Of a DNA stretch of 64,000 nucleotides, positions 9,568 to 36,215 are shown one piece after another. The position numbers were made by a program, and so were the translations under genes. Where the stretch lies: the NCBI RefSeq assembly GCF_022045235.1, contig NW_027266267.1, positions 37,882,001 through 37,946,000 on the forward strand, given 5' to 3'. Positions within the stretch are counted from its first letter, which is position 1; the number at the start of each line of letters is the position of its first letter. The notes beneath the pieces are model-generated. The model searched no databases. It was not told where the DNA came from and worked only from the letters and a program-made list of their open reading frames with translations. Source of the DNA: Haliotis cracherodii (Eukaryota).

Positions 9568-12500
9568 ATGGTACCTCTCAGGCAAATTTCTGAATGGACG
9601 CTACTTCTTCTTCTGATGATTCATGAATCTGTCGGTATGTTATTTCGGTGGTATGTCTACACTCATAACATTGTACTGATTCAGCTAGTATGTGATATCT
9701 GTGTTATATCCATACACCAAATCATATACTGATTCATAGATCAACTGGCCAGTGGCATCGTAGCTTATCAGTATATCAATGAACTCTAATTTATTATGTT
9801 ACACAATTACAATTAGTACAACTAATAATGAACATACGCATCTTTATGAAGATCATATTTACGCCAAAAGGTTCGCCGGAACTGATCTGTCCGGATGTCG
9901 GTTATCTTGGTTCTCCTGCTCATCTGATGTGCATCTCATCAAGTAATATAACTCCCCATGGCTATGTGACATCGCAAGATGAAGTTGCCGCTATTTGCAG
10001 TTTATCTAGCTCACCATGTACAACAATGGGCAACTACATGGCGTCTACCATCAACCAGACACACAGTAGCCTCACCATACCTGCAGTACAGCAAGCACAT
10101 GCTGGGCAGTGGACGTGTACTATCCCACCTTCGTCTCCCCTATCCTGCAACTTAACTGTTGTGAGTAAGTACCCCAAGATAATATACATGATTGTGAAGC
10201 CAACACTCGCAACTATGGACCCTATCCCATCACTCAGTGTGGATGTATGCTGTTCAACAATGGCGAACACTATCCCGTAACATGTTGCTGGTACATGTTA
10301 AAAATTGCAAAATGAATTTTATTCACATGGGCGTATTGCAAAGGAATTTTTTATGAACATTGTAAGTGTTAACAACAGCAGTTTATTTTGTACTCAGACA
10401 CACGTGAACTAGTAGAGAAAGAACAGTCATATTTTCCAAGCCATTGTAACATTTACAAGACGTGTCAGTAACCAACAATATGTTTGATGCGATTCCATGT
10501 TTTCACAGTGTTTGTACAGGAGAACAATTGCCGTGCCATTGTATGTATTTGTGACGGGTGTTACCAGGGAGGGCACACTTACATTTTTGCGAACACCTGG
10601 CATCCTTATTGTTTGACATAGTCGGAACATAGTCGGAACCGTGCAATAGACAAGATTTAAGGTTTCTTATGATCATGGAAAGAGATTTACCAACTTGCCT
10701 CAACATCATATTGTCATGCCACTAAATGAAGGAGTACTATCAAGTGGGGACATAGTTGACAAGATGTCATATATACTTTATACTGAGAATCCCATTGTAC
10801 TTGATATTTTTGTGCTTATGATATATATATATTGAAACTATTCTTGTCAATGAGGAAAGGAAAACATCTCAAGTTGAAGGTTCTTCCGGCTGAATGTCGT
10901 ATCGAACATGTAGAGACTATTTGTAATGCGACTTTGTGTTTTAGAACTCCCGACCTGCTTCACAACAAGTGATGTAAACATTACGACGCTCGACGTTGGC
11001 GAGGAGCTCTCCTTGACAGTACACATCCAGGGGTATTATTGTTCTGAGCTGGTTCAGCTGAAGGTATCCACGGGAAGAACTGATCATGAATACTTCAGTG
11101 AAACAGTCACTGATATAACAGATAAAACAGTTAACATCAAAATCAACAAGACCAACTCCAACTTCGAGGCGGAACTGGTCTTCACCTGCGGTGGCCATAG
11201 CTCGACTCTACCTTGTAATGTAACCAACGGTGAGTACAAGGGGAAAGAGGCAGTACTAGTATTCATATGTTTAAATCATATTTCTCAACATAAACAACGC
11301 ATGTTGGATTTCAAGTAAAGTGACTTCAATGTATGAAAAAACATTGAAATAAAACCATGTGTGCACACTGTGTAAATCTGGGTTGTGGAATACGCCAAGC
11401 GTTTCCCTTTTCGTAAGTATTAACGTGAATACCGATGTGCACATGGCACAACGCACGTGGCCTGTTGTTGTTAGTTTTGGTAACACAAACGCGAACCAAA
11501 TCATAAGTCAGGGAAATACCTATTTCCTCATAGTTAACATAACTCCTTCAGGAGGAAAGTATGATCAATGGCAGGTCTTTGTGAAGCATGTTCATTTGCA
11601 GATTTGTGATAATAACTGAAACACAATTGCATGATCTATGAATACCTGCATTAAAAGAGTCAATTGTAATGGCGCTCATCGGGTCCACAGAACACCACAT
11701 TTCAACAGAAAAGGCTACTGATACATCAGCGAGAAGTTGCATCTTAATGGGTATGGACATACGTTGTATATATAATATTTATTTACAGGGACGTCGTCAA
11801 GCACACCTGACCAAAATATAACACCAGGGACGCCAAACGACATCGACATAATTGGAGTAGATGAACCCGCCGTCTTAGTCACCGTCACCGTCATCGTCAC
11901 CGTCACCATCATCATCATCGTCGCTTATGTCTGCTTCAAAAGGAGGACCATACAGCAGAAGGTGCCACCAGTGTTGGAATGCCCCGACCCGCCGTACATG
12001 CAGTTTAGGGAACCCCTTCATAACACGTACGACAACGTGGAGGATCTCGGGGCACAGGGGTCAGGATCCAAGAAGGACACTTCACCACCTTGTACAGAAG
12101 CGCCTGCGGACACAGTGAACTATGCAGCCGTTGGCGACACCAGTGTCCCAGACACTAAAACAAGGAAAGATGACCCGCCTGTATTGATGGACGCTGGGGG
12201 ATATCCAACTGTTGCTGACAGACGTGTTACGGACAAAGGCACACAGGGAGATGTCACAGATAAATCTTTAGACACGGACTACTATAAAACTGTTGAGGAT
12301 CAAAATGCAGCATCACCTAGTGTAATGCAAGGAGACCTACCTCTCCCATTTGACGCTGCAGGATATTTAACTGTCGCTTACAGACAAGCTGCAGAAACTA
12401 GCCCACAGAGAGAAGACACAGCTAACCCTTTAGACACGGGCTACTATGAAATAGTTGAGGACCAAAGTGCAGCAGCACGTAGTGTAATGCAAGGAGACCT

Positions 12501-13371
12501 ACCTGTCCCATTTGACGCTGCAGGATATTTAACTGTCGCTTACAGACAAGCTGCAGAAACTAGCCCACAGAGAGAAGACACAGCTAACCCTTTAGACACG
12601 GGCTACTATGAAATAGTTAAGGACCAAAGTGCAGCAGCACTTAATGTAATTAAAGGAGACCTACCTCTCCCACTTGACGCTGCAGGATATTTAACTGTCG
12701 CTTACAGACAAGCTGCAGAAACTAGCCCACAGAGAGAAGACACAGCTAACCCTTTAGACACGGGCTACTATGAAATAGTTGAGGACCAAAGTGCAGCAGC
12801 ACGTAGTGTAATGAAAGGAGACCTACCTCTCCCAATTGATGCTGCAGGATATTTAACTGTCGCTTACAGACAAGCTGCAGAAACTAGCCCACAGAGAGAA
12901 GACACAGCTAACCCTTTAGACACGGGCTACTATGAAATAGTTGAGGACCAAAGTGCAGCAGCACTTAGTGTTATGCAAGGAGACCTAACTCTCCCAATTG
13001 ATGCTGCAGGATATTCAACTGTTCCTGTCAGACATGCTGCGGACAAAGGCAAACAGGGAGATGACACAGCTAAACCTTTAGACACAGGACTCTATGTAAA
13101 TGTTGATGTCGAAAGTGATGCAGAACCTAGTCTCCGACAAGGAGACCTACCTGCCCTAACTGCTGCTGTGGGGTATTCAACAGTTGACAATTTCAAACCA
13201 TGCCCCGGTGCCGCGTCATTCAGTCACACGTGGAAGCCTGAAAATGTCCCGAATCAGATAGAAGGACAGAAAACCAACAGACCTCTCTATGAACTTTATG
13301 CAACTGTTAACAAGAAGAGGGGCACACCTAGGTTGGCCAGTGCTGATGCAACTACCACCCCTGTTATGTGA
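9568..13371 (+). CDS. Receptor A2: signal peptide, two Ig-like domains, TM, long Tyr-repeat tail (~742 aa)
   Basis: Exons 9568-9634 (MVPLRQISEWTLLLLLMIHESVG), 9871-10164 (Ig-like, LMC...AHAGQWTC), 10945-11229 (PTC...YYCS...FTC...C), 11789-13371; all introns GT-AG phase 1; spliced length 2229 nt is open and divisible by 3. Confidence 0.85.
12165..13135 (+). repeat. Coding 162-bp (54-aa) tandem repeat in the A2 tail
   Basis: ggatatttaactg recurs at 12361, 12523 and onward at a 162-nt period; 4 near-identical units plus 2 diverged flanking units. Confidence 0.9.
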
Positions 13372-36000: not shown

Positions 36001-36215
36001 TAACTGCTGCTGTGGTGTATTCAACAGTTGACGATTTCAAACCATGCCCCGGTGCCGCGTCATTCGGTAACACGGGGAAGCCTGAAAGTGTCCCGAATCA
36101 GATAGAAGGACAGAAAACCAACAGACCTCTCTATGAACTTTATGCAACTGTTGACAAAAAGAGGGGCACACCCAGGTTGACCAGTGCTGATGTAACTACC
36201 ACCAGTCTAATGTGA
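33025..36215 (+). CDS. Receptor A4: ectodomain like A3, short Tyr tail (~510 aa)
   Basis: Exons 33025-33091, 33328-33621, 34419-34703, 35329-36215; GT-AG phase-1 introns; open frame. Confidence 0.85.

What the first reader, a model, noticed from the sequence alone, without database searches (positions are those of the whole stretch)
11962..36215. Accordion-like coding VNTR sets the number of phosphotyrosine motifs per tail
Seen: a 162-nt/54-aa unit, itself a dimer of ~27-aa halves (DAAGYLTV and DTGYYEIV), occurs 1x (A1), 6x (A2), 6x (A3) and 2x (A4), always in frame within one exon. TGYYEI fits the ITSM pattern TxYxx[VI]; the conserved VGYSTV/VVYSTV fits the ITIM pattern VxYxxV; acidic residues precede the tyrosines as in Src-family substrates. 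Inference: signalling output is tuned by repeat number, and the ~27-aa spacing could suit tandem-SH2 proteins.
Basis: partly seen in the sequence, partly recalled or inferred. Interest (0 to 1): 0.75.

Follow-up and report, generated by a model that had tools for sequence, protein, structure and literature searches.

The report
Abalone receptors with accordion tyrosine tails
Four tandem abalone genes encode immunoglobulin-type membrane proteins whose tails carry 1, 6, 6 or 2 copies of a 54-residue repeat that places a Tyr-x-x-Val motif every 27 residues, so near-identical receptors likely differ in how many signalling proteins they can dock.

Summary
Observation confirmed, motif reading corrected. 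Genes A1-A4 (signal peptide, two Ig-like domains, TM, predicted disordered tail) carry 1, 6, 6 and 2 in-frame 162-nt units in one TM+tail exon. They match Haliotis cracherodii records (A4 = XP_071095931). The conserved element is not ITIM/ITSM but Y-x-x-V every 27 aa: invariant in 33 of 33 distinct halves while all other columns vary. ITSMs are absent from A1 and A4, and ITIMs lie outside the repeat. An H. asinina relative has zero units but keeps the 27-aa pair. A3 and A4 have identical ectodomains with 16 versus 7 YxxV. Relatives pair similar ectodomains with ITAM-like or Tyr-free tails, as in paired-receptor families. Introns 2 and 3 are spliced in related species. Not shown: phosphorylation, SH2 partners, tissue, variation between individuals, any effect of repeat number. 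Spacer sequence looks unconstrained (pN/pS 1.1), and RefSeq models of A2/A3 skip three units. CagA data imply extra units would add capacity more than affinity. Verdict: a new variant of a known kind.

The parts
100..845 (+). A1 last exon: stalk, TM, tail with 1 unit (474-635); rest of the gene lies before the window
   Evidence: ORF of 247 aa; identical to the end of P0011/XP_071095309
9568..9634 (+). A2 exon 1, signal-peptide-like N-terminus
   Evidence: ATG and GT donor; same start in record P0008
9871..10164 (+). A2 exon 2, Ig domain 1 (V-set-like)
   Evidence: Pfam Ig_3 E 2e-5, below the curated cut-off; fold match for the A4 model
10945..11229 (+). A2 exon 3, second beta-sandwich domain (atypical Ig-like)
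   Evidence: AG/GT borders; no Pfam match; pLDDT about 95 in the A4 model
11789..13371 (+). A2 exon 4: stalk, TM and 477-aa tail with 16 YxxV
12109..12189 (+). A2 half B0, an unrepeated 27-aa half with YxxV just before the array (also at 393, 23768, 35622)
12190..13161 (+). A2 array, six 162-nt units; units 2-5 are the near-identical core
13291..13317 (+). A2 terminal ELYATVNKK motif (also 765-791, 24944-24970; D for N at 36135-36161)
   Evidence: [LIM]YAx[VI]xK in 16 of 73 TM-bearing family proteins
21171..25024 (+). Gene A3: exons 21171-21237, 21474-21767, 22565-22849, 23475-25024; 731 aa
23849..24814 (+). A3 array, six units, last half B 6 nt short
33025..36215 (+). Gene A4: exons 33025-33091, 33328-33621, 34419-34703, 35329-36215; 510 aa
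   Evidence: identical to P0010/XP_071095931; joints 33621>34419 and 34702/3>35329 in contigs of runs X14 and X15
35703..36005 (+). A4 array, two units; unit 2 has a 21-nt deletion removing the half-A Tyr
16050..22799 (.). Block with 1 mismatch and 5 gap positions in 6,750 nt against 27901-34653; makes the A3 and A4 ectodomains identical
2980..5803 (.). 50-nt satellite (57 copies; also 15399-16049 and 27100-27900), up to 96% identical to 10044-10093 of the Ig1 exon
45862..50107 (+). Related gene B: Ig1 exon 46250-46525, three tandem domain-2 exons (46894, 48514, 49005), TM+short Tyr tail at 49784-50107; no repeat
54466..56450 (+). Related gene C: Ig1 54468-54755, domain 2 55187-55480, TM with short Tyr-free tail near 56284-56450

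Best explanation
A1-A4 are tandem paralogues of an abalone two-Ig-domain membrane protein family whose TM+tail exon has expanded by 162-nt duplications into a ladder of Tyr-x-x-Val motifs 27 residues apart, which would serve, once phosphorylated, as a multivalent SH2 docking array likely read by a SHP2-type tandem-SH2 phosphatase. Shown: gene structure, unit counts, invariance of Tyr and Val, a zero-unit outgroup form, identical A3/A4 ectodomains with different tails, and ITAM-like or Tyr-free tails on close relatives. Predicted: Ig folds and a disordered tail. Inferred: Src-family phosphorylation (Asp at Y-4); bivalent binding of neighbouring sites; Csk-type binding at the terminal YAxVNK motif; an inhibitory role opposite the ITAM-like siblings. 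Also inferred: added units raise the number of effectors docked per receptor (valency, clustering threshold) rather than the affinity of one effector.
For: Y5 and V8 are the only invariant columns among 33 distinct in-register halves, with a synonymous change at V8. Yxx[VI] enrichment: p=1e-4 in A1 and 5e-5 in the H. asinina protein P0019. P0019 has no unit yet keeps two such motifs 27 aa apart plus the terminal motif. AF2: ectodomain pLDDT about 95, TM helix 233-263, tail mostly below 50. Domain 1 matches a TCR V domain at Z 13.9, rmsd 1.9 A over 96 residues; both domains match nectin-3 D1D2 at Z 12.1, rmsd 3.8 A over 183. P0016 has an ectodomain 85% identical to A4 with an ITAM-like tail, and P0013/P0014 carry the array on an ectodomain only 34% identical. 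7 of 73 TM-bearing relatives have Yxx[LI]-x10-Yxx[LI]. Precedents: 25-residue ITIM-ITSM spacing for bivalent SHP1/2 binding (PMC8631942); pTyr valency sets nephrin clustering (PMC4238058); the P0019 terminal motif equals the CagA EPIYA-A core YAKVNKK, a Csk site (PMC2768901; PMC6952403); oyster IgSF receptors signal through ITAM-Syk and ITIM-SHIP (PMC6994640; PMC11841013).
Against: No phosphorylation, binding, tissue or functional data. The repeated motifs lack the hydrophobic -2 residue of classical ITIMs. Pooled pN/pS is 1.1 among units (non-independent pairs) and 1.47 in the post-repeat tail, so only the motif looks constrained. The Tyr codon is TAT in all 33 halves, so shared ancestry explains part of the invariance, and D1 is also invariant among the 28 full-length halves. 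Sites have been lost in intact genes (A4 unit 2; one half each in P0012 and P0013). RefSeq models of A2 and A3 lack exactly three units. CagA affinity rises under 2-fold per step beyond two sites.
Confidence: 0.45

Rival explanations
1. The Tyr-x-x-Val pair is a functional docking site, but unit number is tolerated drift: unequal crossing-over in a disordered tail adds or removes in-frame units with little effect on signalling.
For: pN/pS near 1 in the units; recent homogeneous expansion, core units 3-10 nt apart; loss of single sites in intact genes; the whole locus is recombinogenic, with satellites, a 6.7-kb identical block and duplicated exons; saturation of SHP2 affinity beyond two sites in CagA.
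Against: All 14 in-register sites of A2 and all 14 of A3 keep Tyr and Val. Indels in the arrays of the four window genes keep the frame. Valency effects are sharp in nephrin.
Confidence: 0.3
2. The array is an activating or adhesion scaffold like nephrin or LAT: phosphorylated YE[IT]V sites would bind Nck/Crk/Src-type single SH2 domains and drive clustering and actin assembly.
For: Regular multivalent pTyr sites in a disordered tail, as in nephrin; two-Ig ectodomain resembles nectins; repeated motifs do not fit the ITIM. Likeness of YE[IT]V to Nck/Src SH2 ligands is recalled, not tested.
Against: The family already has separate ITAM-like tails. The conserved 27-aa spacing and the Csk-site-like terminal motif fit an inhibitory module.
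Confidence: 0.13
3. The six-unit arrays or the A3 copy are assembly errors, or the mRNA is shorter than the exon because internal units are spliced out.
For: RefSeq proteins P0007 and P0008 lack 486 nt of the window's exon; 6,750 nt upstream of A3 and A4 differ by one base; weak in-register GC..AG pairs exist in both arrays; the one raw-read run gave too little depth to test length.
Against: 8 of 8 core units are distinct. The A3 pre-repeat tail differs from A2 at 19 and from A4 at 14 of 108 residues. None of the 13 and 18 deletions that reproduce the RefSeq proteins has GT/GC-AG or AT-AC ends. H. rufescens records independently have 3 and 2 units. Run X1 holds 0.68 of the words of the A2 exon.
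Confidence: 0.08
4. The motifs are YxxPhi sorting signals that set endocytosis rate rather than SH2 ligands.
For: YxxV fits the loose YxxPhi pattern (recalled).
Against: Val is a weak Phi residue for AP-2 (recalled). Acidic residues precede the tyrosines and spacing is fixed. Siblings carry ITAM-like motifs.
Confidence: 0.04

Closest known systems
Hydractinia Alr family (bioRxiv 10.1101/2022.03.04.482883, passages)
   Same: Clustered, lineage-restricted single-pass IgSF genes with an unusual V-set domain, exon shuffling, and divergent tails with ITAMs or ITIMs
   Different: Alr genes usually have an Fn3-like spacer and a TM on its own exon; here TM and whole tail are one exon. No tandem-repeat tail in the passages read. 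No allorecognition role known for abalone.
Botryllus fester co-receptors, FcoR (PMC12582321, passages)
   Same: Invertebrate IgSF family with ITIM, hemITAM and non-canonical YxxV 'core' motifs; core-2 motifs occur in pairs 29-33 residues apart
   Different: FcoR change motifs by alleles and splicing and carry 1-4 core-1 motifs; here up to 14 in-register sites arise by internal duplication. No sequence relationship seen among the named hits.
Helicobacter pylori CagA EPIYA region (PMC4623810 passages and section 5; PMC6952403, PMC2768901 passages)
   Same: Works-like analogue: disordered tail, variable tandem duplication of a 34-aa pTyr segment that binds SHP2 bivalently, plus a separate Csk site whose core matches the terminal motif of P0019
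   Different: CagA is a bacterial effector, not a homologue. Its decisive step is 1 to 2 sites; the abalone genes range from 4 to 14 in-register sites.
Nephrin-Nck-N-WASP clustering (PMC4238058, passages)
   Same: Ig-family receptor whose number of tail pTyr sites sets a clustering threshold
   Different: Three sites, valency set by phosphorylation, not by repeat number; partner known.
DRD4 exon-3 coding VNTR (PMC3877354, passages)
   Same: In-frame repeat in a disordered cytoplasmic region that changes the number of linear docking motifs
   Different: GPCR, SH3 motifs, proven allelic variation (2-11 repeats); here Tyr motifs, and only paralogue/species variation shown.
Oyster CgIgR and CgNCAM1 (PMC6994640, PMC11841013, passages)
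   Same: Molluscan IgSF receptors signalling through Tyr motifs to Syk or SHIP; the CgIgR ITAM resembles the tails of P0016/P0018
   Different: Three to five Ig domains, one or two motifs, no repeat array described in the passages read.

Membership tests
Immunoglobulin superfamily receptor | Ig fold in the ectodomain | tested here: met
   AF2 model pLDDT about 95; Z 13.9, rmsd 1.9 A, 96 aligned to a TCR V domain; Pfam Ig_3 E 2e-5 but under the gathering cut-off
Immunoglobulin superfamily receptor | Signal peptide, one TM helix, cytoplasmic tail; spliced gene | tested here: met
   introns 2 and 3 skipped at GT..AG in contigs of X14/X15; intron 1 not covered; signal peptide judged by eye
ITIM-bearing inhibitory receptor | [ILVS]xYxx[ILV] in the tail | tested here: met
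   1 per tail, 2 in A2; not above chance in A1 (p=0.18); absent from P0013 and P0019
ITIM-bearing inhibitory receptor | The repeated motif itself is an ITIM | tested here: not met
   no ITIM match inside the 162-nt units of A1-A4
ITIM-bearing inhibitory receptor | Phosphorylation-dependent recruitment of SHP/SHIP and inhibition | not testable with these tools
   needs biochemistry
ITSM (SLAM/PD-1 type) receptor | TxYxx[VI] as a conserved feature of the tail | tested here: not met
   4 in A2, 4 in A3, 1 in P0015, 0 in the other 6 of 9 tails examined; its Tyr is present in 13 of 33 halves
ITAM receptor | Yxx[LI]x6-12Yxx[LI] | tested here: not met
   0 in A1-A4; met in 7 of 73 TM-bearing relatives, all with spacing 10
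Paired receptor family | Closely similar ectodomains joined to different motif classes, in a gene cluster | tested here: met
   P0016 85% identical to A4 with an ITAM-like tail (second motif ends in Met); tail classes interleave on the ectodomain tree; all H. cracherodii records named share one contig length, 45,300,709
Paired receptor family | Shared ligand and opposing signals in the same cell | not testable with these tools
   no ligand or expression data
Coding VNTR | In-frame head-to-tail repeat in one exon | tested here: met
Coding VNTR | Copy number differs between alleles or individuals | tested here: inconclusive
   RefSeq models with 3 units are ambiguous; contigs and sparse raw reads could not resolve length
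Hydractinia Alr / Botryllus FcoR families | Sequence homology beyond the Ig fold | tested here: inconclusive
   23 of 24 named hits are Haliotis and 1 is a fish protein matched around the TM; 59 of 83 hits were not named; no direct comparison was run

The most novel reading that the evidence does not exclude
Abalone carry an undescribed paired-receptor complex in which one-exon signalling tails are swapped between ectodomains, and the inhibitory tail is a host-encoded CagA-like accordion: identical sensors (A3, A4) are wired to 14 versus 5 in-register pTyr sites, and repeat number, varying between individuals, sets the threshold of self or pathogen responses.
Probability: 0.22. Interest if true: 0.8.

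Novelty: new variant of a known kind. Interest (0 to 1): 0.52.

Why it matters
If the motifs dock SH2 proteins, this is a natural valency series (0, 1, 2, 3 and 6 units) on nearly the same receptor, which makes the question of how pTyr number sets output directly testable. It also points to a large mollusc receptor cluster with activating-like, inhibitory-like and silent tails, a layout described in Hydractinia, Botryllus and vertebrates. I found no paper on it in abalone (searches; the library lacks most subscription journals). It offers candidate immune or self-recognition genes for disease-affected abalone. If unit number is neutral, the family is still new but the accordion is a by-product.

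Tried and rejected
No whole genome is held for this window, so cluster extent and SH2 partner genes in this animal could not be searched. No RNA holder was listed on record for the A2 exon; the RNA labels of X14/X15 are guesses. Raw-read run X20 gave only 70 partly fitting reads on the A4 stretch, of no use for unit counting. Reads were laid only on A4, so the six-unit arrays were not tested with reads. Pfam gave no family above its cut-off for any of 9 pieces. PDB sequence search gave only weak generic Ig and TM matches, 11 sequences at E<=0.01. The regex-based half alignment selects on the Tyr and is circular for that column; it was replaced by the register-based count, which leaves out the deleted A4 half (37 of 38 slots). 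Splicing as the source of the 3-unit RefSeq models was rejected: no canonical ends among 13 and 18 candidate deletions, and the in-register GC..AG pairs give other products. Orthology of H. rufescens P0015 (3 units) to A2 is not settled: 11 of 108 differences to A2 but also 11 to P0005. Three look-ups of earlier scan findings returned nothing. PMC12943528 and PMC11999971 (passages) held nothing on this family. No complex prediction was run: phosphotyrosine binding cannot be modelled with that tool. No supplements were read; Supplementary file 4 of PMC8631942 lists motif spacings and could sharpen the 27-residue comparison.
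Full report
What is there. The first 37 kb of the window is a tandem array of roughly 11.7-kb blocks. Each holds a four-exon gene with phase-1 GT-AG introns: signal peptide, Ig domain, second beta domain, and one exon with stalk, TM helix and the whole tail. A2 is 742 aa, A3 731 aa and A4 510 aa; only the last exon of A1 is in the window. A4 is identical to record P0010 (XP_071095931) and the A1 exon to the end of P0011, both named Haliotis cracherodii 'uncharacterized protein'. An AlphaFold2 model of A4 on 51 family sequences has two confident beta-sandwich domains, a helix at 233-263 and a tail mostly below pLDDT 50. 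Domain 1 superposes on V-type Ig domains (Z 13.9, rmsd 1.9 A, 96 residues) and both domains on nectin-3 D1D2 (Z 12.1, rmsd 3.8 A, 183 residues). Contigs of runs X14 and X15 (coded organisms B and C, RNA by guess) have depth on exons 2-4 and on an intronic repeat at about 34.0-34.2 kb, but none on the rest of the introns. They skip intron 2 (X14) and intron 3 (X14, X15) at GT..AG, so relatives transcribe and splice these genes; exon 1 was not covered.

The repeat. The counts 1, 6, 6, 2 hold. The unit is an old dimer: its halves share 42 of 81 nt against 23.7 expected. In register each tail reads B0, (A B)n, terminal A, giving 4, 14, 14 and 6 slots, of which 37 of 38 keep Tyr at position 5 and Val at position 8; the exception is a 21-nt deletion in A4. 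Among 33 distinct halves these two columns are the only invariant ones. Among the 28 distinct full-length halves Asp at position 1 is invariant too, and the other columns show on average 3.6 changes at least. Counting all YxxV, the tails have 5, 16, 16 and 7. In the one-unit tail A1, Yxx[VI] occurs 5 times against 0.61 in shuffles (p=1e-4); in H. asinina P0019 5 against 0.68 (p=5e-5).

Motif labels. Strict ITIMs occur once per tail (twice in A2), outside the unit, and one match is within chance (p=0.18). The tails are better described as ladders of D-x3-Y-x-x-V at 27-residue steps, ending in ELYATVNKK 41 residues after the last rung.

Is it an artefact? The 8 core units are 8 different sequences, and A3 differs from both neighbours in its pre-repeat tail (19 and 14 of 108 residues). 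Two results need telling. First, RefSeq models P0008 and P0007 equal A2 and A3 minus exactly 486 nt, and none of the 13 and 18 deletions that reproduce them has canonical splice ends. They may reflect alignments of three-unit transcripts from another allele or species, or a different assembly; I could not decide. Second, 6,750 nt upstream of the A3 and A4 tails differ by one base, which fits recent conversion or duplication but leaves block copy number open. Reads could not settle array length.

Evolution. Unit number across records: 0 in H. asinina P0019; 1, 2, 2, 6, 6 and about 2-3 in H. cracherodii genes; 2 and 3 in H. rufescens. P0019 keeps the B0/terminal-A pair at 27 aa and the terminal motif, so the pair is probably ancestral and the array grew from it. 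A half-unit duplication seen in P0005 matches a joint in DNA run X1. A phmmer search of 1.84 billion representatives gave 83 hits; 24 have names, of which 23 are Haliotis and one a fish protein matched around the TM; 59 were not named. Of 95 stored family proteins 73 have a TM. Of these, 16 end in [LIM]YAx[VI]xK, 7 have Yxx[LI]-x10-Yxx[LI], 2 more have Met in the last position, and 17 have no tail Tyr, some being truncated models; the set includes isoforms. Tail classes are interleaved on a 39-row ectodomain tree: P0016 (ITAM-like) sits in the A clade at 85% identity to A4, while P0013 and P0014 carry the array on a 34%-identical ectodomain. No formal test of tree conflict was run. A one-exon, phase-1 tail makes such swapping easy (inference).

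Mechanism. Most likely (0.45) the ladder is phosphorylated by a Src-family kinase and neighbouring sites bind a tandem-SH2 phosphatase, with a Csk-type site at the end, opposing the ITAM-like siblings. The spacing is near the 25 residues of PD-1 and BTLA (PMC8631942, passages). The P0019 terminal motif matches the CagA EPIYA-A core, a Csk site (PMC2768901 passages with Table 2; PMC6952403 passages). Oysters use ITAM-Syk and ITIM-SHIP signalling (PMC6994640; PMC11841013; passages). All of this is analogy. CagA also limits the tuning claim: KD falls from 24 uM to 208 nM between one and two segments and only to 40 nM at eight (PMC4623810, section 5). Extra units would therefore matter through capacity or clustering, as pTyr valency does for nephrin (PMC4238058, passages). 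Against function of the length itself: pooled pN/pS is 1.1 in units and 1.47 after them, against 0.45 before them (pairs not independent), and single sites have been lost in intact genes. Neutral expansion is the main rival (0.3).

Comparison and verdict. Clustered invertebrate IgSF families with mixed Tyr tails are known from Hydractinia (bioRxiv 10.1101/2022.03.04.482883, passages) and Botryllus, whose FcoR even have YxxV pairs 29-33 residues apart (PMC12582321, passages). Coding repeats that change motif number are known from DRD4 (PMC3877354, passages) and CagA. Searches found no paper on this abalone family or on a receptor tail with a repeat-built pTyr ladder; the library omits most subscription journals. 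The feature is real, it is a new variant of a known kind, and its most interesting claim is untested. Interest 0.52.

Noticed in passing
window 2980-5803, 15399-16049, 27100-27900: A 50-nt satellite upstream of each A gene is up to 96% identical to 10044-10093 of the Ig1 exon, a stretch conserved across Haliotis relatives, so it is probably exon-derived. Run X1 shows matching 40-49-nt back-jumps. It could act as a conversion donor; untested.
   Followed up: partly
window 16050-22799 vs 27901-34653: One mismatch in 6,750 nt: A3 and A4 share promoter region and ectodomain but not tails.
   Followed up: partly
window 46894-49271: Gene B has three tandem domain-2 exons, and record P0025 has three Ig1+domain-2 pairs, so ectodomain length also varies by exon duplication.
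   Followed up: partly
records P0035 and P0025 vs window 49000-56500: These RefSeq models match the window's B and C exons only in part and end in TM exons not found in the window; they either extend past the window or come from a different sequence.
   Followed up: no
window about 45210-45330: A copy of the B-type TM exon ending in an early stop, before gene B; probably a remnant.
   Followed up: no
window 11878-11922: A short GTCACC repeat in the TM-coding region lengthens the A2 stalk/TM by 9 residues relative to A1, A3 and A4.
   Followed up: no
window 57257-57568: An open stretch of 104 codons that recalls the integrase of Polinton/Maverick-type elements (recalled likeness, not tested).
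   Followed up: no
window 8059-8634 and 60121-61065: A 145-nt tandem repeat present only upstream of A2, and a C-rich 58-nt repeat of 16 copies.
   Followed up: no
record P0084 (H. rufescens): A 562-aa relative with five stretches matching the query, best on Ig1, on a different contig from the main cluster.
   Followed up: no
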